From IMG/VR virus record IMGVR_UViG_3300047557_003034, positions 1-64,000 of that record: 64,000 nt of DNA. The stretch is one strand, 5' to 3'. Source of the stretch: a virus. A model generated the notes under the pieces. That model was not told where the DNA came from. It worked only from the letters and a program-made list of their open reading frames with translations, and did not search any database. Position numbers and translations under genes: made by a program. Each line of letters starts with the position of its first letter. Positions within the stretch are counted from its first letter, which is position 1. Below are positions 3,780-40,407 of the stretch, piece after piece.

Positions 3780-5477
3780 ATGTCAAACCTCGTACAATCA
3801 CTCCTAGAGAGTGCTAACCCGTACCAAGATCAACTTGGTGTTAGTCAGAGGCTTGCTAAGAAATGGTCAAAATCTGGTTTGCTCGAAGGTCTTAGAGACT
3901 ACGATCGCAACAACATGGCCATTATCTTGGAAAACCAAGCCAAGCAACTCGTAATGGAACAATCAAGCACAGGCGGTAACGTAACCAACGGTGCAACCTT
4001 CACTCCCGGCAACGGTGAGCAGTGGGCTGGTGTAGCTCTTCCACTTGTTCGTAAGATCTTTGGACAGATTGCAGCAAAAGAATTCGTTTCTGTTCAGCCT
4101 ATGAATCTCCCTGCAGGTCTAGTGTTCTATCTTGACTTCCAGTATGGTAACAACATTCCTAAGCCTTTCCAAGCCGGACAATCACTCTATGGTACTCTTA
4201 ACCAAACCCTAAACAGCGGATTTGGTAACTTAGCAGAAGGTGGTCTTTATGGTCAAGGTCGCTTTGGATATTCTATCAACCAGTTCTCTGCATCTTATGC
4301 ATCTGGTTCAACTACTGCAGCTCTTGCAACTTTCCAAGACGTAAACTTTAACTCTGCCTACTCTTCTTCTATTGTTGGTGGAACAATGATTAAAGTATTC
4401 GTTAACACTGGTTCTTTAAATCTTGACACCAATGGTGTTCGTGCATTCGAACTTTCTGGTTCTTCTGGTGGCGGTGGTGCTGTTAATCCTAACTCAGTAG
4501 TTTCTGATTTCACTCAGATTCAAGGTGCTAACTTGGTGTTCATCGTAAGTGGTTCTTCACTTGCTAACGTACAGCTTAGCCTTGCAACTGGTTCAACTTT
4601 GTTCTACAACAAAGCTACCAACTTCCAAACTCGTGGTGACTTCGAAGATGCTCCAAACGATACTCCAGCTCCGTTCTCTAATCCGAACGCTGCATCATCT
4701 GCTTCTATCGTTATCCCTGAGATCAACGTACAGATGAAGTCTGAGACTATTTCTGCTAAGACTCGTAAGTTGAAAGCACAATGGACTCCAGAATTTGCAC
4801 AAGACCTTAACGCTTATCACAGCCTTGACGCTGAAGCTGAGTTGACTGGCATGCTTTCTGAGTACATCTCTCTTGAGATTGACCTCGAAATCCTTGACAT
4901 GTTGATTGAGAACGCTCAAACTGTAGCTAACTGGTCTGCTCAAATTGGTAACCAAATCAATGCTGCTGGTACAGCTTACACAAGCAACACAGCAGGTGCT
5001 TACTACAATCAAATGTCTTGGTTCCAAACACTTGGTATTAAACTCCAAGCTGTATCTAACAAGATCCATCAGTTGACTCTCCGTGGTGGTGCTAACTTCC
5101 TTGTATGTTCTCCAACTGTAGCTACTATCTTGGAATCTATCCCTGGATTTGCAGCTGACACAGATGGTGCAGCAGATACCATGAAGTATGCCTTCGGTGT
5201 ACAGAAGATTGGTGCTCTCAACAGCCGTTACAAGGTTTACAAGAACCCTTACATGACTGAGAACACAATCCTCATGGGCTTCCGTGGCAATCAGTTCCTT
5301 GAGACTGGTGCCGTTTATGCTCCGTACGTACCACTTATCATGACTCCTTTGGTGTACGATCCAAATACCTTCACTCCAAGGAAAGGTATTATGACTCGCT
5401 ACGCTAAGAAGATGATTCGTCCTGAGTACTATGGTAAGGTATACGTAAGTGACCTTCAGGTAGCTCAAGCTAGCTAA
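3780..5477 (+). CDS. major capsid protein (T4 gp23-like)
   Basis: PLVRKIF, VSVQPMNLPAGLVFYLDF, AKTRKLKAQWTPEFAQDLNAYHSLDAEAEL, YAPYVPL and FTPRKGIMTRYA motifs. Confidence 0.97.
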   Translation: MSNLVQSLLESANPYQDQLGVSQRLAKKWSKSGLLEGLRDYDRNNMAIILENQAKQLVMEQSSTGGNVTNGATFTPGNGEQWAGVALPLVRKIFGQIAAKEFVSVQPMNLPAGLVFYLDFQYGNNIPKPFQAGQSLYGTLNQTLNSGFGNLAEGGLYGQGRFGYSINQFSASYASGSTTAALATFQDVNFNSAYSSSIVGGTMIKVFVNTGSLNLDTNGVRAFELSGSSGGGGAVNPNSVVSDFTQIQGANLVFIVSGSSLANVQLSLATGSTLFYNKATNFQTRGDFEDAPNDTPAPFSNPNAASSASIVIPEINVQMKSETISAKTRKLKAQWTPEFAQDLNAYHSLDAEAELTGMLSEYISLEIDLEILDMLIENAQTVANWSAQIGNQINAAGTAYTSNTAGAYYNQMSWFQTLGIKLQAVSNKIHQLTLRGGANFLVCSPTVATILESIPGFAADTDGAADTMKYAFGVQKIGALNSRYKVYKNPYMTENTILMGFRGNQFLETGAVYAPYVPLIMTPLVYDPNTFTPRKGIMTRYAKKMIRPEYYGKVYVSDLQVAQAS

Positions 5478-5502
5478 TAACAGATAGCTGATCATAACAA
5501 AT

Positions 5503-5529
5503 AGCCGGTCCCGTAAGACCGGCTTTTTT
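5503..5529 (+). terminator. rho-independent terminator after MCP
   Basis: AGCCGGTC-loop-GACCGGCT followed by a T run. Confidence 0.85.
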
Positions 5530-5541
5530 GTTTTCTGCAAT

Positions 5542-5550
5542 CTATTTATT
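5542..5550 (+). promoter_or_regulatory. putative late promoter CTATTTATT
   Basis: Motif 12 nt before ATG 5563. Confidence 0.7.
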
Positions 5551-5562
5551 CTAAAGGAACAC

Positions 5563-5877: not shown

Positions 5878-5884
5878 ACTAAGT

Positions 5885-5910
5885 AGCTGGTCCAAACGAC
5901 CAGCTTTTTT
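5885..5910 (+). terminator. rho-independent terminator
   Basis: AGCTGGTC-loop-GACCAGCT followed by a T run; paralogous to the 5503 hairpin. Confidence 0.85.
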
Positions 5911-5950: not shown

Positions 5951-6628
5951 ATGAATCAACTAGCGGGGAAGGAAAAACGAAAGCCAAAGAACCCAGTAAA
6001 GTTTCAAATTCAACTAAATGAAGAACAAAAGGTAGCAAAGCAGTTAATACTTGATAACACCATAACAATCCTAACAGGTCAGGCTGGTTCAGGTAAAACG
6101 TTAGTTGCATGTCAAGCTGCACTAGATTCTCTTTTCAGTAGACAATTTGAGAAGATAATCGTAGCAAGACCAGTAGTTACAGCAAGAGAAGAGATTGGAT
6201 TTTTGCCGGGTGGAATGAAAGAAAAACTTGATCCCTACATTGCACCCATCTACGATAACATGTACAGGTTGTATGATAAGAACAAGATTGATAGCTTGAT
6301 TATGGAAGGGCAAATTGAGATTATTCCGTTTGCTTTCATGCGTGGACGCAACTTTTCCAATGCTTTTATCATCCTAGATGAAGCACAAAATGTGACAGAT
6401 ACGCAGATGGAGATGGCAATATCAAGGCTATGTGAGGGATCTAAGATGGTTATAGTAGGAGATGTTGGGCAGATTGACCTAAAAGATAAGAAAGAATCAG
6501 CTCTAATCTTCCTAAACAAGGCAGTGCCTGGTGCTGTTCACGGTGTGCAATCGATGCATCTGAAGCATAATCACAGGCATCCTATAGTAGAAGAAGTGTT
6601 AAACATATATAAACAACTACGTAACTAA
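5951..6628 (+). CDS. phoH: PhoH-like ATPase
   Basis: GQAGSGKT Walker A, IGFLPG, FMRGRNF, ILDEAQN, GDVGQID and RHPIV motifs. Confidence 0.95.
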   Translation: MNQLAGKEKRKPKNPVKFQIQLNEEQKVAKQLILDNTITILTGQAGSGKTLVACQAALDSLFSRQFEKIIVARPVVTAREEIGFLPGGMKEKLDPYIAPIYDNMYRLYDKNKIDSLIMEGQIEIIPFAFMRGRNFSNAFIILDEAQNVTDTQMEMAISRLCEGSKMVIVGDVGQIDLKDKKESALIFLNKAVPGAVHGVQSMHLKHNHRHPIVEEVLNIYKQLRN

Positions 6629-7818
6629 TGGCTAACCCAGTAATATACGACGGAAATCCGGGTCCTATCTCAGGTAGTACTCCATTTGGTTATTATGATA
6701 ACGACTTGCAATACCAAGCGGACGGACCTAAAGTCGCTAATTACTGTGCAAGGAAGTTAGGATATCCAGTGCTCGATGTCGAGTTGGATGATCTTAACAT
6801 ATACGCTTGCTTTGAAGAAGCTGTATCGATATATGCAGAGGAACTCTACCAACTTAAGATCAAAGACAACTATCTTACCTTGGAAGGTCAATCAACAGCT
6901 TCTCTGCTTAACAACACAGTTGTAAGTCCAAACCTAACTAATACAATTAACATCTCAGAGACTTATGGTCAAGTGGCTGGAGTTGGTGGATTTGTTAATT
7001 GGAAGAGTGGTTCACTTGAGCTAACTGCTAGTTTGCAAAACTACGATCTATATGATTGGGCAGTCAATACTCAAGGCATGGCAATAACTGACAGACTTAT
7101 AGTACAGAGAGTCATGTACCAAGCTCCCCCAGCTGTCTACGGATACGGGTACGGAGCTTATTATCCACAATTAGGCGGTGCAGGAGCATGGCCTGGTGAT
7201 TGGGGTGGATACGGTATGGGAGCAGGTGTTGGACTAGGTGGCGGATCAAACAGTGTAACGCTATACCCAGTCTTCTGGGACATACAGAGAGTCCAAGAAC
7301 TTGAGATGTCTAACACTGTCAGACTGCCTAACTGGTCCTTTGAACTGATAGGAACAATGCTTAGGATAATGCCTATTCCACTAGTAAATGGTAGGTATGT
7401 TTCCATTCAGTACTGTTTCCAATCTGATCTAATGAGCCTTACTGAGAATAGTCCTTACGGAGCCAATCAGGGGCTAGTAGCAAACCCAAGTCAGGCACCA
7501 TACGGTAACATAACCTATACGCAGATAAATCAACCAGGAAAGCAGTGGATCAAAGAATACACAGCTGCACTTACTTCGGAACTACTTGGACTCGTAAGAG
7601 GTAAGTACACGACTGTAAACATACCTGGAAGCGATGTTACGCTTAATTACAGCGATCTCATATCAAGAGGTCAGACAATGACAACAGCACTTAGAGAGAA
7701 GTTGAGACAAGATCTAGAAGATATGTCTAGGCAAGCACAGCTTCAAAGAAAGCAATCTGAAAATGATTCGTTGCAAAGCACATTACTCAACATTCCATTA
7801 CAAGTATACGTAGGATAA
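6628..7818 (+). CDS. neck/head-tail adaptor (gp13-like)
   Basis: RKLGYPVLDVEL, WIKEYTAAL...GLVRGKY...IPG and terminal PLQVYVG; follows the head genes. Confidence 0.75.
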   Translation: MANPVIYDGNPGPISGSTPFGYYDNDLQYQADGPKVANYCARKLGYPVLDVELDDLNIYACFEEAVSIYAEELYQLKIKDNYLTLEGQSTASLLNNTVVSPNLTNTINISETYGQVAGVGGFVNWKSGSLELTASLQNYDLYDWAVNTQGMAITDRLIVQRVMYQAPPAVYGYGYGAYYPQLGGAGAWPGDWGGYGMGAGVGLGGGSNSVTLYPVFWDIQRVQELEMSNTVRLPNWSFELIGTMLRIMPIPLVNGRYVSIQYCFQSDLMSLTENSPYGANQGLVANPSQAPYGNITYTQINQPGKQWIKEYTAALTSELLGLVRGKYTTVNIPGSDVTLNYSDLISRGQTMTTALREKLRQDLEDMSRQAQLQRKQSENDSLQSTLLNIPLQVYVG

Positions 7819-8312: not shown

Positions 8313-9173
8313 ATGCCACAACAAGTTAGACCACAGAACAGACGAGAGTTCCTCGATAAAGTCATCGTACCAACTGACCCTCAGTACGGTAATCCTAATA
8401 TCATCTTCTCTGAGCCGTTTAAACCGGGTCAGCCTGAGTTCAATAGGGCATATGAGACAACCTACGATGAAGCACCAACCAAGAAGTTTTCAATAGGTTT
8501 AAAGGATGTTAACGAGGCTCTAGATTGGTATTTCAATCAGCATCTCAAGCTAGAAGTATTCCAAAATAATGATACAATACTGGTGCCTGTCATATACGGT
8601 ACACCAGAAAAGTGGAAGTCAGTTCAGGCTGATGGTTACTATAGGAACAATGCTTCACAGATCATGTCACCTCTCCTAATGTATAAGAGAGCATCAGTGG
8701 AGCAGAATAGAGAGCTAGGCAACAAACTTGACGGTAATAGAGCGTATAATGTACAGCTTTTTGAAAAAGTCTTCAATAGGAGAAACATATACGATAACTT
8801 CTTCACACTACAAGGTCAGAAGCCACAGAAAGAATACTATGTGGTGGTCACACCTGACTACATAACAGCTACCTACGATTGTGTTATATGGACAAACTAC
8901 GTAGAGCAGATGGATAAGTTGATAGAGTCTCTTAACTTTGCATCCAACTCTTACTGGGGTGATCCGTCCAGGTTTCAGTTTCTAACTAAGATTGAGACCT
9001 TCAATGATGTGCAGACCTATGAACAAGGGGAAGATAGGCTAGTTAAGACTGAATTTACTATGACTATCAACGGGTACTTAGTACCGGATAGTTTAAATGC
9101 ATACCTAGCACAGTTGTCGAGTAAGACGTATAACATTTGTAAGATTGTCTTTTCAACTGAAATGGTACTATGA
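8313..9173 (+). CDS. tail terminator/sheath stabiliser (gp15-like)
   Basis: VPVIYGTPEKW, MSPLL, PDYITATYDCVIWT, EQMDKLIE and FTMTINGYL motifs; synteny. Confidence 0.65.
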   Translation: MPQQVRPQNRREFLDKVIVPTDPQYGNPNIIFSEPFKPGQPEFNRAYETTYDEAPTKKFSIGLKDVNEALDWYFNQHLKLEVFQNNDTILVPVIYGTPEKWKSVQADGYYRNNASQIMSPLLMYKRASVEQNRELGNKLDGNRAYNVQLFEKVFNRRNIYDNFFTLQGQKPQKEYYVVVTPDYITATYDCVIWTNYVEQMDKLIESLNFASNSYWGDPSRFQFLTKIETFNDVQTYEQGEDRLVKTEFTMTINGYLVPDSLNAYLAQLSSKTYNICKIVFSTEMVL

Positions 9174-9763
9174 GTTCATTAGCCGACATAATAACTGAGA
9201 TTAATTCGCTGACTGGGTACAATGTACCTACAGCAAGCGGTATCATCATAAGCTCATCAACAGTACTATCTAGTGGATCAGTGAATGAGATAGTTAATTA
9301 CATAAACAGCATTACTGGATATAGTATTCCAGGCACAAGTGTCACCTATACAAGTGGATCCAATGTAGCAGGATCTCCAATAGTCTACCAAGTTCCAACA
9401 CCGGTTAGTGGTACTATATCAAGAGATGGCATAGCACCAGGAAGAGTCATCAAAGCTGACCACATTTTGAGGATAATTGACGCTCTTGACGGTACTACTC
9501 CGAACCTTATTGTTATGTCTGGCAGCCTGCAAGTTACAGGTTCAACAAATCTATCAAGCAGTCTTACTGTAGGTGGTACAACTAACCTAAACGGACCGCT
9601 TAATGTGTACCAATTAGCCACATTCTTTGGCAATCTTCTAGCATCTGGGTCAGCAACGTTTGCTCAAGATCTCATACTACCATTTGTACCAAATCAGAAT
9701 TTTATCGAATCTGTGTCAGGATCTATGCAAGGCACGGATACTGTCGATGGAGGAACGTTTTAA
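9170..9763 (+). CDS. Ser/Thr-rich virion protein (collar/fibre-associated)
   Basis: Internal repeat (INSLTGY/INSITGY), SGS/TGS-rich, ends DGGTF. Confidence 0.5.
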   Translation: MSSLADIITEINSLTGYNVPTASGIIISSSTVLSSGSVNEIVNYINSITGYSIPGTSVTYTSGSNVAGSPIVYQVPTPVSGTISRDGIAPGRVIKADHILRIIDALDGTTPNLIVMSGSLQVTGSTNLSSSLTVGGTTNLNGPLNVYQLATFFGNLLASGSATFAQDLILPFVPNQNFIESVSGSMQGTDTVDGGTF

Positions 9764-9825: not shown

Positions 9826-12357
9826 ATGGCAGTTAAGATAGAACTGAAACGCAGTGCGATACCTGGAAAAGTACCTACTGTTGATCAACTAGACCTCGGC
9901 GAATTAGCGATTAATACGTACGATGGTGCGATATACTTTAAACAGGACACTGGTGTTAGTCAGTCTATCGTTCAAGTAACAACTACGGGAGGTACTACGA
10001 TATCAGCATCGTATGCTGTAACATCTTCCCACGCAATAACTGCCAGCTACGCTCTTAATGTACCAGACACAGCATCATTCTCAGTAAGTTCTTCTTACGC
10101 TCTCACAGCTAGTTACGCACTTAACGTGCCTGAGACTGCGTCATTTGCCATTAGTTCATCCTATGCTTTGACAGCAAGCTATGCTTTAAATGTACCTGAG
10201 ACAGCATCTTTTGCTATTAGTTCATCTTATGCAATAAGTGCATCTTACGCAGTTAGTTCATCAAACGCTATATCAGCTAGCTATGCATTAAGTGGTAGTA
10301 ATTCCATTAGTGCATCCTACGCACTCACCGCTTCCTTCGTCAATCCACTTAGGCAAAACGTACAGATTACAGGATCACTGTTCATAAGTGGTTCTCAAAA
10401 TATTATAGGCTCAGGGTCGGATGTATTCTCAGTAGACGGTACATCAGGCAGGCTATTTGAGATAGATGATACACTATCAGGATCACTCTTCTCAGTCAAC
10501 ACAGTATCTGGTCTACCAATCATAGAGGCTTTCTCAGACAACACAGTTAGGATAGGACAGTACGGTACAAGAGCACTGTACGTTTCACAATCTGCTGTTG
10601 GTATTGGAAAGGAAAATGCACTCAACGGAAAGCTTGATGTGAGTGGTAGTACCTTCATGACAGGCTCACTCAATGTGAGTCAAGGCATTACGGGTAGCTT
10701 GTTTGGTACTGCATCTTGGGCACAGAATGCTCAAACTGCATCTTTTGTCTTGAATGCTGTGAGTGCATCGTTTGCAGCTACTGCATCAAGTGCAGATAAC
10801 TTCTTTATTAGGCAAAATCTAACAGCAAGCAACGCTCTTATCAGCGGTACAATCACTGCACAGACACTTGTTGTGCAAACAGTTACATCATCTGTCATCT
10901 ACTCATCAGGCTCAAATGTGTTTGGTGATAGCTTATCAGATGTTCAGCAGATGACCGGATCAGTAAATATAACTGGTTCTCTCAGTGTTAACGGTGGATC
11001 TGTACCACTTGGATCTGGTGTTGCTGGTCAAGTGGCTGTTTGGTCAGGCAGTAGTAGTGTAAGTGGTAGTAATAATTTATTTTGGGATAGGACTAATAGT
11101 AGGTTGGGGATTGGTACTAGCACACCTGGTAATCATAAAGTGTACATACAACATGATTCAACTGGACCTAACTTCTACGATTTCTCTTCGTTGTTTATTA
11201 ACGGTAACGGTTCAAATGTTTATATAAAAGCTGGAACTAACGGCTCTACAGCTGGCGTATCTAGCCTATATTTAGGAAACAGTACTGGTGTTATCCTAAC
11301 TATATCAGGTGAATCCACCAACTCTATAAAATTCTACCACGGCACGACTTCCAACTTCATGTACTACCAACCTGGTGGATACAACATGTTTAGGTTAGGA
11401 TTAACAGAACCAGCTACTTCAGTCTTCAGACAAGCTGTGATATCATCTTTCGGACAAGCAGGAAGAAACGTATTATCAATCTACGGAACCACAAGTCAAA
11501 CAGGAACACTCCTCGACATACATGCTAACGATGCAGACACTTCCAGGGTATTTCAGTTAAATGCCAACGGTAACTTAATGCTTCAAAATGGAGGCACATT
11601 TACTGACACCGGAGAACGTCTTCAAGTATCAGGCAGTGCAAAGATAACAGGCAATACTGTTATTACAGGTTCCCTAACCGTACTAGGCGGTATCACTGGC
11701 TCACTATTCGGAACAGCTTCTTGGGCACAAAACGCAGTGACAGCATCTTTTGTAGCAAATGCTATTAGTGCATCATACGCAGCCACTGCATCAAGTGCAG
11801 ACAGCTTCCTCATAAGACAAAGTCTCACTGCATCACAAGCACTCATATCAGGCTCAGGTACACAAAGACTAACAATTGTAGGTTCAGGTTCAGCACAACC
11901 ACTCTTCACAGTACAAGGCTCACAAGGAGGACTATTCTCAGTAACAGATAGCCTATCAGGATCACTCTTCACAGTTAGCGATGTTTCAGGATTGCCTATA
12001 ATGGAAGTGTTCTCTGATAACACTATCTTGATGGGTAACTACCAAGATCCTATGTTGTTGACTACAACTAGGGCAACTTCAACAGTCGGAGTAAACGTTA
12101 TCTACAACCTACCTACAGCATCTTACGATGCAGTGTACGTAGATTACGCAATTAGGTCGGGTTCTAACGCTAGAGCTGGTAACTTTATGGCGTTGTGGAG
12201 TGGTAGCCAAGTAAACTACGTAGACAATTCAACTACCGACTTTGGTAATACGTTTGGATTTGTGTTCGGAGCATCAATCTCAGGTAGTAACATGGTGGTG
12301 ACCGGATCAGCAACAACGGCAGGTTGGACTATAAAAACAATTGTAAAAGCAATATAA
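9826..12357 (+). CDS. tail/head fibre protein
   Basis: N-terminal IELKRS..PGKVP..LDLGELAINTYDG fibre-attachment motif; ASYA repeats; duplicated modules. Confidence 0.75.
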   Translation: MAVKIELKRSAIPGKVPTVDQLDLGELAINTYDGAIYFKQDTGVSQSIVQVTTTGGTTISASYAVTSSHAITASYALNVPDTASFSVSSSYALTASYALNVPETASFAISSSYALTASYALNVPETASFAISSSYAISASYAVSSSNAISASYALSGSNSISASYALTASFVNPLRQNVQITGSLFISGSQNIIGSGSDVFSVDGTSGRLFEIDDTLSGSLFSVNTVSGLPIIEAFSDNTVRIGQYGTRALYVSQSAVGIGKENALNGKLDVSGSTFMTGSLNVSQGITGSLFGTASWAQNAQTASFVLNAVSASFAATASSADNFFIRQNLTASNALISGTITAQTLVVQTVTSSVIYSSGSNVFGDSLSDVQQMTGSVNITGSLSVNGGSVPLGSGVAGQVAVWSGSSSVSGSNNLFWDRTNSRLGIGTSTPGNHKVYIQHDSTGPNFYDFSSLFINGNGSNVYIKAGTNGSTAGVSSLYLGNSTGVILTISGESTNSIKFYHGTTSNFMYYQPGGYNMFRLGLTEPATSVFRQAVISSFGQAGRNVLSIYGTTSQTGTLLDIHANDADTSRVFQLNANGNLMLQNGGTFTDTGERLQVSGSAKITGNTVITGSLTVLGGITGSLFGTASWAQNAVTASFVANAISASYAATASSADSFLIRQSLTASQALISGSGTQRLTIVGSGSAQPLFTVQGSQGGLFSVTDSLSGSLFTVSDVSGLPIMEVFSDNTILMGNYQDPMLLTTTRATSTVGVNVIYNLPTASYDAVYVDYAIRSGSNARAGNFMALWSGSQVNYVDNSTTDFGNTFGFVFGASISGSNMVVTGSATTAGWTIKTIVKAI
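10042..10230 (+). repeat. three 63-bp (21-aa) tandem repeats ASYALNVPETASFAISSSYALT
   Basis: Seen directly in the translation and DNA. Confidence 0.85.
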
Positions 12358-32250: not shown

Positions 32251-32589
32251 ATGATGATAATTGGCAAAATCGATCCGACAGCTACAATATACCTTCAATC
32301 GGATCCGTTTAATCCTTCTACAATTACAGGATCTTACATTGCTGCTGTAGCACGTCCTTATGTTCTTGGTACCAACAGTGTAAACTTCCAAGTGTCTTAT
32401 GGTAACTGTACTTTCGATGAAGGTGGTAACATAACTGAGTTCACTACTATCTTCAATAGTAATTGCAACCTTTCTGGTACAGCAATTGAGACTTGGGGTA
32501 CAGATGACACAGTAGTTCTTCAAGAGATTGCACAAGCGCAAGGTACAACTGTTACACAGTTCTACTCAAGCAGTCTTAACATATTCTAA
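32251..32589 (+). CDS. hypothetical, probably virion-associated protein
   Basis: Clean ORF under the late motif. Confidence 0.55.
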   Translation: MMIIGKIDPTATIYLQSDPFNPSTITGSYIAAVARPYVLGTNSVNFQVSYGNCTFDEGGNITEFTTIFNSNCNLSGTAIETWGTDDTVVLQEIAQAQGTTVTQFYSSSLNIF

Positions 32590-32631: not shown

Positions 32632-33507
32632 ATGAACATAATATTCCAAATCAACGGAGGAATAGGTAAATGTATTATGGCTACCGCTGTATGCGAAGCC
32701 ATTAAAAAGCAATACCCAAACTCTAAGCTCATAGTTGTTTCAGGATACGCAGATGTGTTCTTAAATAACCCACATGTTGATAGATCGCTGCAGTTTGGCA
32801 GCATAAGTTACTTCTACGAAGAGTATTTGCAAAACGAGAAGGACTTCAAAGTATTCGCTCACGATCCGTACGTACAAACCGAATATCTCTACCAAAATGA
32901 ACACTTGATTCAAACTTGGTGTGAGATGTTCGGCATTGCTTATGATGGTGAATACCCAAGCATACATCTGACAGATAGAGAAAAAACATTCCTAAGCTCC
33001 AAATTTACATCGGATAGACCGATGCTAGTAATGCAAACAAATGGAGGAGCTGATGCAAACTTAAAGTACTCCTGGGCAAGAGATTTACCAGCCAATAACG
33101 TAACGGATGTAGTACAATACTTTTCTGAGCATTATAACATTGTGCATATAAGAAGAGAAGATCAAATACAATATCCAGGCACAATACCAGTATCAGACAA
33201 CTTCAGATCACTTGTGGTGCTTATATCACTGAGCCATAAGAGGCTGTTTATTGATAGCATGGGTCAACATGTGGCTGCATGTTTAGGATTACCATCAACA
33301 GTGTGTTGGGTTGTGAATAAACCTGAAGTCTTTGGATACCCAATACACGATAACATCATCTGTAAACCATTCACCAAGAAACCAGAGCTGAGAAATTCAT
33401 ACTTCCAGCAGTTCAATATTGGTGGTGATTTACTAGAATTTCCCTATAACTCCGAACACGAAGTGTTTGATAGCAAAGACATCATAAACTCAATACTAAA
33501 ACAATAG
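32632..33507 (+). CDS. glycosyltransferase, GT9/heptosyltransferase-like
   Basis: GGIGKCIMATAV..AIKKQYPNSKLIVV..VFLNNPHVD N-terminus; LFIDSMGQHVAACLGLPSTVCW C-terminal motif. Confidence 0.7.
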   Translation: MNIIFQINGGIGKCIMATAVCEAIKKQYPNSKLIVVSGYADVFLNNPHVDRSLQFGSISYFYEEYLQNEKDFKVFAHDPYVQTEYLYQNEHLIQTWCEMFGIAYDGEYPSIHLTDREKTFLSSKFTSDRPMLVMQTNGGADANLKYSWARDLPANNVTDVVQYFSEHYNIVHIRREDQIQYPGTIPVSDNFRSLVVLISLSHKRLFIDSMGQHVAACLGLPSTVCWVVNKPEVFGYPIHDNIICKPFTKKPELRNSYFQQFNIGGDLLEFPYNSEHEVFDSKDIINSILKQ

Positions 33508-33512
33508 GTTAC

Positions 33513-34331
33513 ATGGAGAAGTTATTCTTTCAGAGTTCTTTACCGAGAGCAGGCAGTACACTTTTACAAAACATTCTCGCACAAAACCCAGACATCTATG
33601 CTACTCCTACATCAGGAGTGTTAGAACTTGTGTTTGCAGCAAGAGGAAATTACACTGAATCACCAGAGTTCATTGCTCAAGATCCAAGTCTAATGCGAGC
33701 AGGCTTTTTATCCTTTTGTAGAAAGGGAATGGATGGCTTTTACGAAGCTGTGACAGACAAGAAGTACGTAGTAGATAAATCAAGAGGATGGGGAATACAC
33801 TACGACTTCCTCAACCTAATCTATCCAGAACCCAAGATCGTTGTCATGGTTAGGGACCTAAGAGACATCTTCTGTTCAATGGAGAAGAACTTCAGAAAGA
33901 ATCCTGACAAAGCTAGTTCAGTTCTTAACTGGTCACAGATGAGCGGTACAACAGTACCTAAGAGGATTGATATATGGGCTCAATCACAGCCGGTAGGACT
34001 TGCAATAGAGAGGTTGTCTGAAATATTCAGGCAGGGACTTGACAGTAAAATGCTATTTGTTCGCTTTGAAGATCTTTGTTTATATCCCGAAACTGAGATG
34101 ACTAGGATCTATCAATACCTCGATATCCCCTACTACCAGCATGATTTTGATCATATAGAACAAGTGACAAAGGAAGATGATGAGGTGTATGGTATGTTCG
34201 GAGATCACCAGATCAGAACTAAGTTAGCTCCTGTACCATCTACTGCTAAACAAGTACTTGGAAAGGATGTAACAGAGTGGATTTGGAATGCATACCCCTG
34301 GTATTTCCAACAGTTTAGGTACACAAAATAA
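33513..34331 (+). CDS. sulfotransferase (PAPS-dependent fold)
   Basis: 5'-PSB loop SLPRAGSTLLQNIL, DKSRGW, 3'-PB VMVRDLRDIFCS and VRFEDL. Confidence 0.88.
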   Translation: MEKLFFQSSLPRAGSTLLQNILAQNPDIYATPTSGVLELVFAARGNYTESPEFIAQDPSLMRAGFLSFCRKGMDGFYEAVTDKKYVVDKSRGWGIHYDFLNLIYPEPKIVVMVRDLRDIFCSMEKNFRKNPDKASSVLNWSQMSGTTVPKRIDIWAQSQPVGLAIERLSEIFRQGLDSKMLFVRFEDLCLYPETEMTRIYQYLDIPYYQHDFDHIEQVTKEDDEVYGMFGDHQIRTKLAPVPSTAKQVLGKDVTEWIWNAYPWYFQQFRYTK

Positions 34332-34335
34332 AAGT

Positions 34336-34773
34336 ATGATATACTGGTTCACTGGTCAGCCTGGAGCAGGCAAAACAACTCTCTGCAAAAGTCTCATTCT
34401 TCAGTTCTACCCGTCTAAGACAATTCACGTGGATGGTGACGACATAAGAGAGATTTTTGAAAATAAAGATTACTCGGAAGCAGGTAGAAGAAAAAACGTA
34501 GAGCTTGCACAGAACATTGCCTACTTCATGCATAAAAAAGGCTACCTAGTGTTGGTTTCACTAGTATCTCCTTATAAAGATCAAAGAGAAGCCTTCAAAG
34601 CACGGCTAGGTGACTCAATTAAGGAAATCTACGTACATGCGTTTACAGATAGGGGTAGAACGCAGTTTCACGTGGCTAATTACGAGCCTCCTACTGAGAA
34701 CTACATTGACATAGATACAACAAATGCCACTGAATTTGAGTCGTTAAAACAGCTATTAACACAGATAAAATAA
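34336..34773 (+). CDS. cysC: adenylylsulfate (APS) kinase
   Basis: Start is probably ATG 34336. WFTGQPGAGKTT, DGDDIR, DYSEAGRRKN, VSLVSPY..QR and YEPP motifs. Confidence 0.85.
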   Translation: MIYWFTGQPGAGKTTLCKSLILQFYPSKTIHVDGDDIREIFENKDYSEAGRRKNVELAQNIAYFMHKKGYLVLVSLVSPYKDQREAFKARLGDSIKEIYVHAFTDRGRTQFHVANYEPPTENYIDIDTTNATEFESLKQLLTQIK

Positions 34774-35135
34774 TGATAAAAGAAGCAGAAATAGTTGAAA
34801 AAGGTTGGGGACAGGAAGTGGTGTTTGCAAATAGCCAGCAGTATTGTGGTAAAATACTCGTATTCAAGGAAGGTGGTACTAGCTCAATGCATTACCACAT
34901 ACAAAAGCAAGAGACTTGGTACGTTACAAAAGGTAAGTTTCTGTACAAGTACATTGATACAGATACAGCAGATGTACTAGAGGCTGAACTAAATGTCGGA
35001 GATGTTGTGACAAATCTAAGAGGAGAACCACATCAGTTAATAGCTCTAGAAGAGAATAGTGTAATATTCGAAGTGTCAACAGAGCATATAGATGAGGATT
35101 CTTACAGAGTATTTAAAGGAGATTCACAACAATGA
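34773..35135 (+). CDS. cupin-fold sugar isomerase/epimerase-like protein
   Basis: KGWGQE, SMHYH..KQETWYV..G, PHQL, IFEVST and DSYRV motifs. Confidence 0.75.
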   Translation: MIKEAEIVEKGWGQEVVFANSQQYCGKILVFKEGGTSSMHYHIQKQETWYVTKGKFLYKYIDTDTADVLEAELNVGDVVTNLRGEPHQLIALEENSVIFEVSTEHIDEDSYRVFKGDSQQ

Positions 35136-35545
35136 AAGTTTGGGTAAATGGAACATTTGATGTTTTACATTTGGGGCATATTAGGTTACTTGAGTATGCT
35201 GCCAGTCATGGAGAGGTCAGAGTGGGGGTGGACACAGATGAGAGAGTTAGACAGGCGAAAGGTCCAACCAGACCCTTTAACATACTTAGAGATAGGATGG
35301 CTATGCTATCATCTATCAGGTATGTTAGTAGCGTCGTGTCTTTTGGTACAGATGATGAACTTGTACAATGTGTTATGGAGTACAAACCTGACATTATGGT
35401 AGTTGGCTCAGATTATGAGAACAAGAGGGTTATTGGTCATGAGCATGCGGATGTTTTAATATTCTTTCCCAAAATCCAATCGTACAGCACAACTGACATA
35501 TTAAGGTATGAAACAAATATTAATAATCGGGGATCAGTGTATTGA
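35132..35545 (+). CDS. heptose-1-phosphate adenylyltransferase-like (HldE/RfaE domain II)
   Basis: NGTFDVLHLGH, DTDERV..AKGPTRP, GSDY and STTDIL motifs. Confidence 0.82.
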   Translation: MKVWVNGTFDVLHLGHIRLLEYAASHGEVRVGVDTDERVRQAKGPTRPFNILRDRMAMLSSIRYVSSVVSFGTDDELVQCVMEYKPDIMVVGSDYENKRVIGHEHADVLIFFPKIQSYSTTDILRYETNINNRGSVY

Positions 35546-36251
35546 TAAGTTTGTGTACGGAGAAGCAAAGAGACTAAGTCCTGAAGCTCCTGTACCAGTC
35601 TTTACACCTCATAATACAGCAACCAGCAATGGAATGGCTGCAAATGTTGCACGTAATCTACGAGCAATGGCTCCCGAATACATGATAACAACTCAACACA
35701 ATCCGGAAACCATAACTAAGACTAGGTATATCGATCATAAGACAAATCATATGTTTCTTAGAGTGGATGAAGGAGATACTGTGAAACCACTTGAACTAGA
35801 TCTAAAACTAAGAGCTTCCATCCCAGAATTTGATGCTGTTGTAGTAAGCGATTATAACAAAGGATACCTACCACTCAGCGTTATTGAGTACATAGGTAAG
35901 AATGCCAAAATGTCTTTCATTGACTCTAAAAAGAAGCTGCCACTAGAAGTTGCTAGTCTTTATACTATTGTCAAAATGAACGAACAAGAGTATGAGAGCT
36001 ATAACGGGTCTCTAGACTCAATCTCAAACAGCCTCATAATCACACTAGGTAGTAAGGGAGCTAAGTATAAGCACAAAGTATTCAACTCACTGCAGCCAAA
36101 AGAAACGATAGATGTGAGTGGTGCTGGAGATACTTTCCTAGCAGCATTCGTATATTGGTACCTACAGACAGGATCAATCCAATCAGCAATAGTCCATGCC
36201 AATGAAAAAGCCGCTATAGTTGTAACTAAAAAAGGAGTTGCTGTACCATGA
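35508..36251 (+). CDS. heptose-7-phosphate kinase-like (HldE/RfaE domain I, PfkB family)
   Basis: IGDQCIDKFVYG..KRLSPEAPVPV, AANVA.NL, SDYNKG and DVSGAGDTF motifs. Confidence 0.9.
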   Translation: MKQILIIGDQCIDKFVYGEAKRLSPEAPVPVFTPHNTATSNGMAANVARNLRAMAPEYMITTQHNPETITKTRYIDHKTNHMFLRVDEGDTVKPLELDLKLRASIPEFDAVVVSDYNKGYLPLSVIEYIGKNAKMSFIDSKKKLPLEVASLYTIVKMNEQEYESYNGSLDSISNSLIITLGSKGAKYKHKVFNSLQPKETIDVSGAGDTFLAAFVYWYLQTGSIQSAIVHANEKAAIVVTKKGVAVP

Positions 36252-37060
36252 ATATAGTAGTGACTGGTCATTTAGGTTTTATTGGTCGTAATCTGAAAGC
36301 AGAGCTTGAAAAGAAACACCAAGTCTACGGGATTGAAGTAGATGCCTATGATGATGCAGACTGGCAATTTACACTAAAAAACAAACTGGATAGCATAAAA
36401 CCAACTGCTATTTTTCATGTAGGAGCAATATCAAACACGCTTCATACGGACGTTGAAACCATAATGAAACTAAACTGGGAGACAACAACAGTGTTTTCAG
36501 ACTACTGCAAAGCAGTAAACATTCCACTAATCTACAGCTCAACTGCAGCTATCTACGGAGATGGTGAAGGTAAGAAAAACCTATATGCTTGGACTAAGTA
36601 TGCAGGAGAGAAGTATGTAATAGCAAACAATCAAATAGCTCTCAGGTACTTCAACGTATACGGACCTGGAGAGGATAAAAAGAAACGTATGGCATCAGTT
36701 GCCTACCAAGCCTTTTTGCACGATATACACGGAACCAAGATCAAGCTGTTCAAAGGAGAACCAAAGAGAGACTTCGTATACGTAAAGGATGTAGTGGATG
36801 CAAACATATTCGCACTTAAGAATTACTTCAAACTAACTAAGAAACAATATGATGTGGGTGTTGGTAAAGCGGTTACGTTTGAGTATCTTATGGATATAAT
36901 GAATCTCAAGTACGCATATCAAGATATATCAGCAATACCAAACAACTATCAATACCATACCCAAAGTAATCCTGAAAACTGGATGAAGGGTTGGAAACCT
37001 AAATACGACGTTGAGAAAGGATTAAATGAATACAAGCAACACTTATGGAATACTATTTAG
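36248..37060 (+). CDS. ADP-L-glycero-D-manno-heptose 6-epimerase-like SDR (HldD/RfaD)
   Basis: VTGHLGFIG, FHVGAIS, YSSTAAIYG, YAWTK, LRYFNVYGPGE..K.RMASV and RDFVYVKDV motifs. Confidence 0.85.
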   Translation: MNIVVTGHLGFIGRNLKAELEKKHQVYGIEVDAYDDADWQFTLKNKLDSIKPTAIFHVGAISNTLHTDVETIMKLNWETTTVFSDYCKAVNIPLIYSSTAAIYGDGEGKKNLYAWTKYAGEKYVIANNQIALRYFNVYGPGEDKKKRMASVAYQAFLHDIHGTKIKLFKGEPKRDFVYVKDVVDANIFALKNYFKLTKKQYDVGVGKAVTFEYLMDIMNLKYAYQDISAIPNNYQYHTQSNPENWMKGWKPKYDVEKGLNEYKQHLWNTI

Positions 37061-37443
37061 CAAGAGCAGCTGGAGATTTGCTGACAAAAGGACCTAAATA
37101 TGCCATGTTCATAGGAAGATGGCAACCATGGCATGCTGGACATAGGTGGCTTATTGATCAAGCACTTAACAAAGGTAAAAATGTTCTCATCTGCATAAGA
37201 GATGTAGAACCTGATGATAAAAATCCTTGGACTGCAAAGCAGATACTTGACAATCTTGCAAACGAGCTTAAAGATTTGCTTTTAGAAGGCAGAGTAGTAC
37301 TGCTTGTGATTCCTGACATAGAGTCTGTCAACATAGGTAGAGGTGTTGGATATGATGTAATAGAACATACACCACCCGAAGAAATCAGACAGATATCAGC
37401 AACAGCAATCAGGGAAGAAATGAAAAAGGAAGGTAAACTGTGA
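37045..37443 (+). CDS. HxGH nucleotidyltransferase (cytidyltransferase-like; candidate minimal ATP sulfurylase)
   Basis: FIGRWQPWHAGH, NPW, GRGVGY and ISATAIR motifs. Confidence 0.7.
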   Translation: MEYYLARAAGDLLTKGPKYAMFIGRWQPWHAGHRWLIDQALNKGKNVLICIRDVEPDDKNPWTAKQILDNLANELKDLLLEGRVVLLVIPDIESVNIGRGVGYDVIEHTPPEEIRQISATAIREEMKKEGKL

Positions 37444-37955: not shown

Positions 37956-38233
37956 TGAGTAATCAATTGACACCAGAAGAGTTGCAAGAGTTTCAGAGCT
38001 ATCGTACTGAAGTTAACAATCTAGCATCCGTATTAGGAGAGCTAACTTACCAAAAAACCTTGATTGATTTTGAACTTGATTCAGTGAAGGCAAACATCAA
38101 AGAGGTTGCACAAAAACAACGTGCACAGCTTCGTGAACTTGGAAACAAATACGGAAACGTACTAATCGATTTCGAGACAGGAAAACTCACACCCCAGGAG
38201 GTAGACAGCGAGCAATCAGAGTCACAAGAATAA
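37955..38233 (+). CDS. small coiled-coil hypothetical protein
   Basis: Heptad pattern, KYG..IDFETG; precedes the sheath gene. Confidence 0.6.
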   Translation: MSNQLTPEELQEFQSYRTEVNNLASVLGELTYQKTLIDFELDSVKANIKEVAQKQRAQLRELGNKYGNVLIDFETGKLTPQEVDSEQSESQE

Positions 38234-38257
38234 ATTTGCTTTTGCCACTTTACACTG

Positions 38258-38266
38258 CTATTTATT
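38258..38266 (+). promoter_or_regulatory. putative late promoter CTATTTATT
   Basis: Motif before the sheath gene. Confidence 0.7.
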
Positions 38267-38286
38267 AGTAGAAATAAACTATTAAG

Positions 38287-40407
38287 ATGGCAGAAGCATT
38301 AATAAGTCCTGGTGTTTTCCTAAGAGAAAACGACCTATCCCAGATAACAGTTGGACCAATTACGGTAGGATCAGCATTGATTGGTCCTACTGTTCTTGGT
38401 AGAGCTAATGTACCAACCCTAGTAACATCCTACTCTCAGTACAAAGCGAGATTTGGAGCTACCTTTATTTCAGGAGGTACCACTTACGAATATCTGACCT
38501 CTCAAGCTGCGTACAACTACTTTCAACAAGGTGGTACATCGCTCTTAGTAACAAGAGTCACTAGTGGTTCCTATACTCCAGCATCAGCTAGTGTATTAAA
38601 TAATCTAGGAAGCACAGCTGGTGCTGTGATTAACGACAACAGCGCATCTTTTCAAAACTACCCAGCAACTAATACATCAGCCTTTGAGTTGACTGGATCT
38701 GGATTAGCTAAGATATTCATCACATCTAGTACTTTTATAGGTAGTGACTCAGCTCCTAACTATTTTGTTGCTTCTGGTTCAAGTCAAGCACTTACATCAG
38801 CAGCTATAGTATCAAAAATTAACACCCTAACGTCTACGTTAGGAATTGTAGCAACACTGAGCGGCAATGCTTTCACACTAGCCGCTAACGTTCCAGGTAC
38901 TGCAGGAAATAGTTACATCTATAGAACTGGTTCCATTACCAGTACTTTTTCTGGTGGACTTGCTCAAACAGCTAGCTTCGAACTAGAAACTATATCCGTA
39001 GGTAACGCAATGAATAACAACTACAACTCAGCAGCAGGTGTAGCAGTTAACGGTGTACTTCAATCAGGTTCAGCTGATAACATTAGATGGCAGATTACAC
39101 AAGCTGATACAGCTTCTGGATACTTTACTCTTTTGATCAGGCAAGGTAACGATTACACAGCTAATCAAAGCGTACTTGAGACTTGGTCTAACATCTCTCT
39201 TGATCCAAACCAGAACAACTACATTGAGTATGTAATTGGTAACCAAACTTATCAAGTACTTACAGATGAATCTGGTCAAGCTTACTTGCAAGTTACTGGT
39301 AGCTATCCAAACGCGTCTAACTACGTTAGAGTTAAAGCAGTAAACTACCCAACACCAAACTATCTTAGCCCTACTGGTCAGGCACAACCTCAATACACTG
39401 CATCCATTCCTGTAAACGGAAGTGGATCTTACAATGGTTCGTTTGGTGGTGCAAGCGGTCCTTTATTTGGAGGTCTTGGTGTAGCAGCAGTTAACCTTTA
39501 CGAATCGATTCCAACAGTAACTTCTACAACTCCTGCAACCAACATTCAGGGTCTTGTAGCAGCAGATTACAACACAGCAATTAATCTACTTGCAAATACA
39601 GATGCATACGTCTACAACGCAATATATGCACCTGGTTTGACTAATCAGAATGCATCAACTCAAGTAAGTGCTCTACTAGCTACTGTGCAAAATCGTGGTG
39701 ATGCTATTGCAGTAGTAGACATGGTTGGATACAATCAAACAATCACAGCAGTATCAACTGCAGCACAATCTTACGATAACTCATACGGTGCAACTTACTG
39801 GCCTTGGGTTCAGCTAAGATCAACTGAGACTGGTAGACTTAATTTCGTTCCTGCATCAACAATTGTACCTGCAGTTTATGAGTACAATGATAAAGTAGCT
39901 GCTGAATGGTTTGCACCAGCAGGTTTAAATCGTGGTGGTCTTCCGACAGTAATTCAACCAGAAAGAAGGCTAACAGTAGCACAGAGAAACACACTCTATA
40001 CTGCTAAAGTAAACCCAATAGCAATATTCCCTGGTCAAGGTACAGTAATATACGGTCAGAAGACTCTACAAGCTAGAGCATCTGCTCTTGATCGTGTGAA
40101 TGTAAGGCGTCTTTTGATTGCTCTTAAGAGTTACATCGGTCAAATTGCACAAACACTCGTGTTCGAACAAAACACAGCTGTTACACGTAACAAGTTCTTG
40201 TCTCAAGTTAATCCATACCTTGAGTATGTACAACAAAGACAAGGTCTCTATGCATTCAGAGTAGTAATGGATGACACCAATAACACTCCAGATGTAATTG
40301 ATAGAAACTTGCTTGTAGGTGCTATTTACTTACAACCAACTAGGACTGCTGAATTTATTCAACTTGATTTCAACATCCTACCAACTGGTGTAACATTTGG
40401 ACAGTAA
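38287..40407 (+). CDS. tail sheath protein (gp18-like)
   Basis: SPGVFLRENDLS, YWPW, WFAPAGLNRG, VNPI, GQKTL, DRVNVRRL, DDTNNTPDVIDRN and PTRTAEFI motifs. Confidence 0.96.
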   Translation: MAEALISPGVFLRENDLSQITVGPITVGSALIGPTVLGRANVPTLVTSYSQYKARFGATFISGGTTYEYLTSQAAYNYFQQGGTSLLVTRVTSGSYTPASASVLNNLGSTAGAVINDNSASFQNYPATNTSAFELTGSGLAKIFITSSTFIGSDSAPNYFVASGSSQALTSAAIVSKINTLTSTLGIVATLSGNAFTLAANVPGTAGNSYIYRTGSITSTFSGGLAQTASFELETISVGNAMNNNYNSAAGVAVNGVLQSGSADNIRWQITQADTASGYFTLLIRQGNDYTANQSVLETWSNISLDPNQNNYIEYVIGNQTYQVLTDESGQAYLQVTGSYPNASNYVRVKAVNYPTPNYLSPTGQAQPQYTASIPVNGSGSYNGSFGGASGPLFGGLGVAAVNLYESIPTVTSTTPATNIQGLVAADYNTAINLLANTDAYVYNAIYAPGLTNQNASTQVSALLATVQNRGDAIAVVDMVGYNQTITAVSTAAQSYDNSYGATYWPWVQLRSTETGRLNFVPASTIVPAVYEYNDKVAAEWFAPAGLNRGGLPTVIQPERRLTVAQRNTLYTAKVNPIAIFPGQGTVIYGQKTLQARASALDRVNVRRLLIALKSYIGQIAQTLVFEQNTAVTRNKFLSQVNPYLEYVQQRQGLYAFRVVMDDTNNTPDVIDRNLLVGAIYLQPTRTAEFIQLDFNILPTGVTFGQ

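What the first reader, a model, noticed from the sequence alone, without database searches (positions are those of the whole stretch)
4280..39435. [S/T]-[G/A]-S tripeptide concentrated in predicted outer parts of virion proteins: candidate modification sequon
Seen (manual count): about 7 SGS/TGS/SAS sites in the MCP, all in the non-core insertion (about nt 4280-4710). About 12 occur in the sheath, all in residues 90-385 and none in the conserved C-terminal core. There are several in the neck protein and very many in the 9170 protein and the fibres. I found none in the tube, scaffold, protease or tape measure, which are buried or removed, and almost none in replication enzymes (exception: the helicase tail). 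Inference: a motif that recurs in unrelated folds but only in exposed segments looks like an acceptor sequon for a phage-encoded O-glycosylation/sulfation system, plausibly the 32.6-37.6 kb island.
Basis: partly seen in the sequence, partly recalled or inferred. Interest (0 to 1): 0.85.

Follow-up and report, generated by a model that had tools for sequence, protein, structure and literature searches.

The report
Ser/Thr-Gly/Ala-Ser motif on phage surface
The outward-facing parts of this aquatic phage's capsid, neck, sheath and fibre proteins carry the tripeptide Ser/Thr-Gly/Ala-Ser four to six times more often than chance, at positions conserved across its lineage; it may mark sugar-attachment sites, a purely structural role is almost as likely, and it does not depend on the neighbouring heptose/sulfate gene island.

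Summary
[ST][GA]S occurs 7 times in the MCP (all in the insertion), 12 in the sheath (residues 93-379), 4 in the neck adaptor and 7 in the 9170 protein. Together that is 30 against 5.3 expected. The three big fibres have 170 against 47, and the other 38 proteins have 7 against 11.4. The excess survives 15-residue local shuffles, is order-specific (Ser:Thr at position 3 = 30:2), uses mixed codons, and is absent from T4 and Rhodothermus phage RM378. In 81 sheath homologs the sites sit at fixed columns.

The island does encode a GT9-fold transferase, an ADP-heptose pathway and a PAPS/sulfotransferase set. But the motif persists at aligned positions in complete genomes without that cassette (Flavobacterium phage immuto, Microcystis phage Mel-JY01), and the heptose genes occur in none of 80 related loci.

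A different glycosyltransferase trio is conserved across the motif-bearing lineage, and immuto DNA shows no glycosylated base. I rate an O-glycosylation acceptor motif at 0.42 and a purely structural turn or beta-roll element at 0.40. No chemistry exists.

This scan has noted similar motifs on other phage DNA.

The parts
3780..5477 (+). Major capsid protein (Gp23 type). Seven [ST][GA]S sites at residues 170, 175, 210, 226, 257, 270 and 307 (nt 4287-4706), all inside the insertion 126-313.
   Evidence: Pfam PF07068 E=2e-76. Sites. Residues 65-125 and 314-542 align to T4 gp23; 126-313 do not. In 57 diverse MCPs nearly all sites lie in this insertion.
6628..7818 (+). Neck protein (head-tail adaptor Ad2-like). 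Four sites at residues 15, 90, 127 and 133.
   Evidence: PHROG 211, E=3.5e-14. Sites 15, 90 and 127 align with motif sites in Mel-JY01. Immuto has lost all three while the flanking blocks are kept.
9170..9763 (+). 197-aa virion-module protein of unknown family. Seven sites against 1.2 expected.
   Evidence: No Pfam or PHROG hit.
9826..12357 (+). Fibre protein with hexapeptide or 22-residue repeats of the SASYAL/TASFA type. 45 sites against 7.3.
   Evidence: spacings of 6 and 12 dominate.
13330..22197 (+). Giant fibre (2955 aa) built from a 15-residue unit such as FVGGGxxNTASGxxx. 72 sites against 23. C-terminal intramolecular chaperone.
   Evidence: Repeat read. Pfam Peptidase_S74 E=6e-11.
24747..31298 (+). 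Second giant fibre (2183 aa) with the same repeat type. 53 sites against 16.
   Evidence: Pfam LbR_Ice_bind beta roll (6 stretches, E=2e-9) and Peptidase_S74. Counts.
32251..32589 (+). Small Thr/Ser-rich protein directly upstream of the GT9-like gene. Its homologs in relatives are motif-rich (for example 4 against 0.3).
32632..33507 (+). GT9-fold glycosyltransferase (x32632, 291 aa).
   Evidence: AF2 model pLDDT 83.4, pTM 0.86. Foldseek: 3TOV E=2e-11, 1PSW WaaF 3e-9, TibC 4RAP/4RB4 1e-7, WaaC. No Pfam or PDB sequence hit. 4151 mostly viral homologs, a few labelled heptosyltransferase by JGI.
33513..34773 (+). Sulfotransferase (33513-34331) and APS kinase (34288-34773).
   Evidence: Pfam Sulfotransfer_3 E=1e-19 and APS_kinase E=5e-17. 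Conserved with the GT9-like gene in about 11 related loci.
34773..37060 (+). Candidate ADP-heptose pathway: cupin isomerase-like, cytidylyltransferase-like (HldE C-terminal type), PfkB kinase (HldE N-terminal type) and NAD epimerase (HldD type).
   Evidence: Pfam. No homolog in any of 80 related loci.
37045..37443 (+). Small HIGH-motif nucleotidyltransferase, a possible minimal ATP sulfurylase.
   Evidence: Pfam CTP_transf_like E=8e-6; weak ATP-sulfurylase hit E=0.043. Conserved alongside the APS kinase in relatives.
38287..40407 (+). Tail sheath. Twelve sites at residues 93-379 (nt 38563-39429), none in the C-terminal core.
   Evidence: Pfam sheath domains at 432-696. Model pLDDT 77.7. PDB hits to T4 gp18 and others. 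Site conservation in 81 homologs.

Best explanation
The tripeptide [ST]-[GA(S)]-S, usually followed by an aromatic or aliphatic residue and placed where a beta-strand runs into a turn, is a lineage-wide recognition or acceptor element on the outward-facing domains of the virion proteins. It is most likely used for O-glycosylation of serine in the cytoplasm by phage-encoded glycosyltransferases. The enzyme set whose distribution fits best is a conserved trio (two GT-B/GT4-like enzymes and one GT2) found in immuto, Mel-JY01 and a close relative of this phage. It is not the 32.6-37.6 kb island. In this sub-lineage the GT9-like, PAPS and sulfotransferase cassette, with a heptose pathway added in this phage only, may add a second layer of decoration to the adjacent fibres. 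Shown here: the motif, its specificity, its conservation, the enzyme folds and their distributions. Inferred: that any residue is modified, which enzyme acts, and which serine is the acceptor.
For: (1) The same tripeptide is enriched in non-homologous proteins of one lineage. It is not enriched in T4 (5 against 17.5 over 23 structural proteins) or in RM378 (sheath 1/1.1, MCP 1/0.5). That points to a lineage-specific factor acting in trans. (2) Position 3 is Ser, not Thr (30:2 and 170:31). The middle residue exchanges G/A/S at several sites, which suggests a 'small residue' requirement. TibC likewise modifies Ser and not Thr, at N-S-G-G and T-S-A-A (PMC4358343). [quoted passage not shown] Five of 12 sheath sites lie at a strand end or hairpin turn. 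(4) Motif serines are retained in 67% of 81 homologs, against 29% for other serines in the same region (p=0.0003). (5) The GT trio is orthologous between immuto and Mel-JY01 (37-54% identity). It is present in G004, a close relative of the window's phage (57%). It is absent or marginal in RM378 and T4. (6) Immuto DNA contains dA, dC, dT and fdPreQ1 only, so these GTs have no visible DNA product (bioRxiv 10.1101/2023.04.13.536721). (7) There is precedent for phage-encoded virion glycosylation in mycobacteriophages (cited in PMC11256854).
Against: There is no chemical evidence of any modification. At the three best-conserved sheath sites the invariant residue is Gly (81/81). When the motif is lost, the Gly stays (NGT, IGE, QGE), as expected for a structural turn. 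In the fibres the motif is part of a beta-roll repeat. Immuto has the GT trio but has lost the three neck sites. Mel-JY01 has the trio but its giant fibres are not enriched. The co-distribution of motif and GT trio amounts to one shared gain on the tree, so it is weak evidence. The trio was not seen in the window's own contig, which is only about 41% complete. GT clusters in lytic aquatic phages could equally act on host envelope glycans.
Confidence: 0.42

Rival explanations
1. Purely structural element with no modification. [ST]-G-S-aromatic is a strand-turn-strand or capping device, and [DN]-[ST]-A-S-G is the turn of a beta-roll repeat. Both are favoured because these outer all-beta domains are built from a charge-poor, hydroxyl-rich residue set. 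The reader's class merges at least two such structural elements.
For: Gly is invariant (81/81) at sheath sites 260, 337 and 379, and the following residue is conserved aromatic or aliphatic (Y75/81, F79/81, I/L80/81). Sites lie at strand ends, hairpin turns or a helix N-cap in the model. At the neck site the invariant block is G-S-T-P-F-G while the first motif residue varies. Fibre instances are part of a 15-residue beta-roll unit. Sheath site 275 has the same [DN]-T-A-S-G context as the fibre repeat. Outer domains have 7-8% DEKR, against 12-17% elsewhere in the same proteins. The motif is kept across phages of different host phyla and with different accessory GT cassettes.
Against: It does not explain why T4 and RM378 orthologs, which are also beta-rich, show no excess or even a deficit. 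The Ser:Thr ratio of 15:1 at position 3 is far above what turn propensities would give (own knowledge of turn statistics). G/A/S exchange at sites 100, 275 and 371 does not fit a positive-phi requirement. Permutations of the same residues are not enriched, even with 15-residue local shuffles.
Confidence: 0.4
2. One reading: the motif is the acceptor sequon specifically for the 32.6-37.6 kb island, with O-heptosylation by the GT9-like enzyme followed by sulfation, and it exists because of that system.
For: GT9 fold with TibC among the top hits. ADP-heptose-type pathway, PAPS genes and a sulfotransferase in one operon between the fibre genes and the sheath gene. The cassette lies next to motif-rich fibres and a small motif-rich protein in relatives. 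Aah/TibC precedent.
Against: Complete genomes without the GT9-like gene keep the motif at aligned positions. The heptose genes are unique to this phage among 80 loci. Sheath enrichment does not differ significantly with or without the cassette. x32632 is 291 aa against 374-390 residues in the matched TibC chains, so it probably lacks the BAHT-specific additions.
Confidence: 0.08
3. Another lineage-specific trans-acting factor reads the motif, such as an assembly chaperone or a different modification like phosphorylation. Alternatively, it is a by-product of selection for an uncharged, hydroxyl-rich surface.
For: Lineage specificity and occurrence in unrelated proteins. Charge-poor outer domains.
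Against: No candidate kinase or chaperone was identified. Surface-composition selection alone would not fix the residue order.
Confidence: 0.1

Closest known systems
Bacterial autotransporter heptosyltransferases (BAHT: Aah/AIDA-I, TibC/TibA)
   Same: GT9-type GT-B fold. ADP-heptose donor pathway encoded alongside. Enzyme gene next to beta-solenoid adhesin-like substrates. Cytoplasmic multi-site O-modification of Ser in strand-loop-strand elements, with Ser followed by a small residue (PMC3835316, PMC4358343).
   Different: x32632 is about 100 residues shorter than TibC, and the iron-finger and dodecamer features were not tested. The putative substrates are phage virion proteins. The motif also occurs in relatives that lack the enzyme. 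A sulfotransferase and PAPS supply are attached. No modification has been shown.
Virion glycosylation of cluster F1 mycobacteriophages (Che8, Rita; Freeman et al. 2023, as cited in PMC11256854)
   Same: Phage-encoded glycosyltransferases are proposed to put glycans on the major capsid protein, forming a coat.
   Different: Different phage lineage, host phylum and GT families. The acceptor regions there could not be compared because the paper is not held. Here the sites are short motifs in folded beta domains of capsid, neck, sheath and fibres.
Beta-hairpin turn motifs, ST-turn motifs and beta-roll repeats (own knowledge of protein structure; Pfam LbR_Ice_bind)
   Same: Gly-centred two- to three-residue turns flanked by hydroxyl residues. 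A small residue facing the solenoid core. The beta-roll Pfam hit in the fibre.
   Different: Such motifs are universal, but the excess here is lineage-specific and strongly Ser-over-Thr.
General O-glycosylation of Bacteroidota, sequon D-(S/T)-(A/I/L/V/M/T) (own knowledge)
   Same: Ser/Thr acceptor followed by a small or aliphatic residue. The likely host phylum of the nearest cultured relative is Bacteroidota.
   Different: That system acts in the periplasm and requires Asp at position -1. The phage motif has no Asp requirement, and virion proteins assemble in the cytoplasm.

Membership tests
GT9 glycosyltransferases (heptosyltransferase family) - for x32632 | GT-B two-Rossmann fold closest to solved GT9 members | tested here: met
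   All top Foldseek hits are GT9 (3TOV, 1PSW, 4RAP/4RB4, 2H1F; E 2e-11 to 1e-6, TM to query 0.53-0.69).
GT9 glycosyltransferases (heptosyltransferase family) - for x32632 | Sequence match to Pfam PF01075 | tested here: not met
   No hit even at E<=10 for the protein or for any of 9 homologs. One atlas neighbour cluster has PF01075 on 15% of members. JGI labels three homologs as heptosyltransferase.
GT9 glycosyltransferases (heptosyltransferase family) - for x32632 | Catalytic base Asp and ADP-heptose-binding residues (TibC D110, T226, K230, R286, W305) | not tested
   No residue-level structural alignment was available. The N-terminal G-G-L-G-K motif has Lys where I recall GT9 enzymes having Gly-Asp (own knowledge, unverified).
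BAHT protein O-heptosyltransferase systems (Aah, TibC) | Iron-finger Cys motif and dodecameric ring | not tested
   x32632 has 291 aa against 374-390 residues in the matched TibC chains (TM to target 0.49-0.54). This suggests the extra elements are missing.
BAHT protein O-heptosyltransferase systems (Aah, TibC) | [quoted passage not shown] | tested here: inconclusive
   Five of 12 sheath sites are at a strand end or turn, one at a helix N-cap, two inside strands and four in loops or a short helix. Solvent accessibility could not be computed.
BAHT protein O-heptosyltransferase systems (Aah, TibC) | Demonstrated heptose on the substrate | not testable with these tools
   Requires mass spectrometry of virions.
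   Immuto and Mel-JY01 lack the GT9-like gene yet keep the motif. Heptose genes are in 0 of 80 loci. Enrichment is 5.0x with and 3.8x without the cassette, p=0.09.
Structural turn motif | Position-specific conservation with an obligatory Gly | tested here: met
   G is 81/81 at sites 260, 337 and 379 and 77/81 at site 93. This is not met at sites 100, 275 and 371, where G, A and S interchange.
Structural turn motif | Generic to homologous or analogous beta domains in other phages | tested here: not met
   T4: 5 against 17.5 expected. RM378 sheath 1/1.1 and MCP 1/0.5.
Gp23-type major capsid protein with surface insertion domain | Pfam Gp23 match, with an insertion between the conserved blocks | tested here: met
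   PF07068 E=2e-76. Two aligned blocks to T4 gp23 flank residues 126-313.

The most novel reading that the evidence does not exclude
A large lineage of aquatic myophages with T4-type capsids coats the outside of its capsid, neck, sheath and fibres with O-linked glycans on the serines of [ST]-[GA]-S. It uses its own cytoplasmic glycosyltransferases. In this sub-lineage the coat is further elaborated with heptose and sulfate by a GT9-like, PAPS and sulfotransferase cassette. That would be a virus-encoded sulfo-glycoprotein coat with a short, readable sequon.
Probability: 0.3. Interest if true: 0.85.

Novelty: new variant of a known kind. Interest (0 to 1): 0.58.

Why it matters
Phage-encoded virion glycosylation is so far documented only in a few mycobacteriophages. 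If true here, a short sequence-readable acceptor motif shared by thousands of environmental phages would let glycosylated virion surfaces be predicted from metagenomes. It would give a function to the abundant orphan glycosyltransferase and sulfotransferase genes of aquatic phages. It would also bear on adsorption, aggregation and grazing or immune recognition of virions. Cultured relatives exist (Flavobacterium phage immuto, Microcystis phage Mel-JY01), so the question is directly testable. If the motif is only structural, it is still a useful lineage marker for outward-facing domains, but it is ordinary biology.

Tried and rejected
Composition artefact: rejected by whole-protein and 15/30/60-residue local shuffles.

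General clustering of loop residues: rejected, because permutations of the same residue classes are not enriched.

DNA-level word: rejected, because codons are mixed.

Shared ancestry of the motif-bearing domains: hhalign of the sheath and MCP profiles gives probability 0.2%. Fibres were not compared with them.

Generic property of myovirus virion proteins: rejected by T4 and RM378.

Dependence on the island: rejected.

Identifying x32632 by sequence: Pfam and a PDB profile search gave nothing. Only the fold search worked.

The MCP was not folded, because the two fold jobs went to the sheath and the GT9-like protein. Its insertion was delimited by alignment instead.

Freeman et al. 2023 could not be read. 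A literature search for phage-encoded heptosyltransferases or sulfotransferases acting on virions found nothing relevant.

A phyletic test of motif against GT trio beyond five genomes was not possible, because most related contigs are fragments.

No complex prediction was run, because enzyme-substrate pairs are poor subjects for it.

Full report
WHAT THE WINDOW IS. All genes lie on the + strand of a 77-kb partial phage contig, about 41% complete. It has a Gp23-type major capsid protein and a contractile sheath. The nearest cultured relatives by MCP and sheath are Flavobacterium phage immuto (58% and 48% identity), Microcystis phage Mel-JY01 (50% and 39%) and, more distantly, Rhodothermus phage RM378 (37% MCP). 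The lineage is very large in environmental data: 8000 MCP hits were scored, and 80 sheath loci were kept out of about 600 matches.

- MCP: 7 sites, residues 170-307.
- Sheath: 12 sites, residues 93-379.
- Neck adaptor: 4 sites.
- The 9170 protein: 7 sites.
- Fibres: 45, 72 and 53 sites.
- Tube, scaffold, protease and tape measure: none.
- Helicase: 2 sites, in its C-terminal tail.

The four non-repetitive surface proteins together have 30 sites against 5.3 expected. The fibres have 170 against 47. The remaining 38 proteins have 7 against 11.4. The excess survives shuffling within 15-residue windows. It is order-specific: permutations of the same residue classes stay near expectation. Thr is almost excluded from position 3 (30:2, p=2e-7, against 7:15 in the other proteins). 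Ser codons of both families are used, so the signal is at protein level.

All MCP sites lie in residues 126-313. This stretch does not align to T4 gp23 and takes the place of its surface insertion. Across 57 MCPs of 30-96% identity, nearly all sites fall in this insertion. The sheath and MCP profiles are unrelated (hhalign probability 0.2%).

THE MOTIF IS A CONSERVED, LINEAGE-SPECIFIC FEATURE. In 80 sheath homologs (44-87% identity) there are 722 sites against 183 expected. 75 of the 80 exceed twice their expectation. Only 9 of 734 instances fall in the C-terminal core. The sites sit at fixed alignment columns: 260 is SGS in 71 of 81 sequences, 379 in 70, 93 carries the motif in 67, 371 in 53, 337 in 47 and 275 in 42. 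Exchanges stay within TAS, SAS, TGS, SGS and TSS. Motif serines are retained in 67% of homologs, against 29% for other serines in the same region (p=0.0003). Three of the four neck sites align with motif sites in Mel-JY01.

Two outgroups lack the signal. T4 has 5 sites against 17.5 expected over 23 structural proteins. RM378 has 1 against 1.1 in the sheath and 1 against 0.5 in the MCP.

WHERE THE SITES SIT. In the sheath model (pLDDT 77.7) the sites are distributed as follows.
- At the end of a strand or in a hairpin turn: 93, 136, 214, 275, 337.
- N-cap of a helix: 163.
- Inside strands: 100, 228.
- In loops or a short helix: 119, 260, 371, 379.

Gly is invariant at sites 260, 337 and 379, and the following residue is a conserved aromatic or aliphatic one. 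At sites 100, 275 and 371, G, A and S interchange.

The giant fibres are built from a 15-residue unit of the type FVGGGxxNTASGxxx. One has a Pfam beta-roll match, and both end in the Peptidase_S74 chaperone domain. Their counts therefore reflect a repeat and are not independent events. Sheath site 275 has the same [DN]-T-A-S-G context as the fibre repeat. The outer domains are charge-poor: 7-8% DEKR, against 12-17% in the rest of the same proteins.

THE ISLAND. The genes are as follows.
- 33513: a sulfotransferase.
- 34288: an APS kinase.
- 34773-37060: cupin, HldE-like adenylyltransferase, HldE-like kinase and HldD-like epimerase.
- 37045: a small HIGH-motif nucleotidyltransferase with a weak ATP-sulfurylase match.
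- 32632: no sequence-level family match, but it folds confidently (pLDDT 83, pTM 0.86). It matches only GT9 enzymes at the top of the list: 3TOV, WaaF, TibC and WaaC.

So a heptosyltransferase-like enzyme, its donor pathway and a sulfation module are really present, between the fibre genes and the sheath gene. The GT9-like, sulfotransferase, APS-kinase and HIGH-NTase cassette recurs in about 11 related loci. It is often next to fibres and a small motif-rich protein. The four heptose genes recur in none of the 80 loci.

THE MOTIF DOES NOT DEPEND ON THE ISLAND. The complete genomes of immuto and Mel-JY01 have no homolog of the GT9-like gene. Immuto still shows sheath 8/2.6, tail spike 53/12 and another virion-module protein 13/1.8. 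Mel-JY01 shows sheath 7/2.1, neck 4/0.6 and MCP 4/1.4. Sheath enrichment is 5.0-fold with the cassette nearby and 3.8-fold without it in 10 kb of upstream sequence (p=0.09, and confounded by relatedness).

A BETTER-MATCHED ENZYME SET. Immuto and Mel-JY01 share an orthologous glycosyltransferase trio next to a PD-(D/E)XK nuclease gene, at 37-54% identity. One member is found at 57% identity in G004, a contig whose sheath is about 74% identical to the window's and which also has the GT9 cassette. RM378 gives only a marginal match and T4 gives none.

LC-MS of immuto DNA found dA, dC, dT and fdPreQ1 only, so these enzymes have no visible DNA product. Conservation across phages of Bacteroidota and Cyanobacteria argues for a phage-intrinsic substrate. 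This step is inference. On the tree the co-distribution with the motif is a single shared gain, so it is weak evidence.

WEIGHING THE EXPLANATIONS. For a modification sequon:
- lineage-specific recurrence in unrelated proteins;
- Ser-over-Thr specificity;
- a small middle residue;
- the strand-loop context, which parallels Aah/TibC (PMC3835316, PMC4358343);
- the conserved glycosyltransferases.

For a purely structural element:
- invariant Gly and a conserved following residue;
- membership in a beta-roll repeat;
- motif loss in the immuto neck protein despite the GT trio;
- no fibre enrichment in Mel-JY01.

No chemistry exists.

PRIOR NOTES OF THIS SCAN. Similar Ser/Thr-Gly motifs on outer virion proteins, and fibre, sulfotransferase and GT9-like cassettes, were noted on other phage DNA. 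These are unchecked AI notes and were used only as leads. One of them suggested looking for a conserved glycosyltransferase pair, which I then tested.

Noticed in passing
L003:1-3000 (immuto 49.1-53.0 kb); L087:5442-8973 (Mel-JY01 83.4-87.0 kb); L089 (G004:C1:20538-21845): An orthologous glycosyltransferase trio (GT-B, GT4-like and GT2) next to a PD-(D/E)XK nuclease gene is conserved between a Flavobacterium phage, a Microcystis phage and a close relative of this window's phage. The first GT is split into two genes in Mel-JY01. The G004 copy of the GT4-like gene contains one in-frame TAA.
   Followed up: partly
window 34773-37060: The four ADP-heptose-type genes (cupin, adenylyltransferase, PfkB kinase, epimerase) have no homolog in any of 80 related sheath loci. 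The flanking GT9-like, sulfotransferase, APS-kinase and HIGH-NTase genes do recur. The heptose block looks like a recent insertion into an older cassette. No GmhA-type SIS isomerase or GmhB-type phosphatase was seen, so the cupin may substitute for the isomerase.
   Followed up: partly
L018-L034, L037-L039, L045, L055 (sheath ORFs of 577-597 aa): About a quarter of the sheath homologs are roughly 110 residues shorter. They lack one outer domain (window residues about 117-230), so the sheath surface domain is present or absent within the lineage.
   Followed up: no
window 32251-32589 and its homologs in L009, L014, L016 and L031: A 111-114-aa Thr/Ser-rich protein always lies just upstream of the GT9-like/sulfotransferase cassette. 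It is itself strongly motif-rich in relatives (up to 4 sites against 0.3 expected). It is a candidate dedicated substrate or decoration protein.
   Followed up: no
window 13330-22197 and 24747-31298: The giant fibres (2955 and 2183 aa) are made of a 15-residue Gly-rich repeat. One matches the Pfam grass-antifreeze beta roll, and both end in the endosialidase-type intramolecular chaperone domain. Cys occurs inside many repeats.
   Followed up: partly
window 5951-6628; immuto 130555-131241; Mel-JY01 28159-28920: A PhoH-like ATPase gene sits between the MCP and neck genes in all three phages, inside the structural module.
   Followed up: no
window 32632-32700 (x32632 N-terminus): The nearly invariant N-terminal motif reads G-G-L-G-K, where I recall GT9 heptosyltransferases carrying Gly-Asp with the catalytic Asp. 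If so, the catalytic base is elsewhere or the chemistry differs. This rests on memory and was not verified.
   Followed up: no
L027:216-6067 and L029:2-7308: In some relatives the cassette is expanded by several extra 200-320-aa genes of unknown family between or upstream of the GT9-like and sulfotransferase genes. This suggests lineage-specific variation of the product.
   Followed up: no
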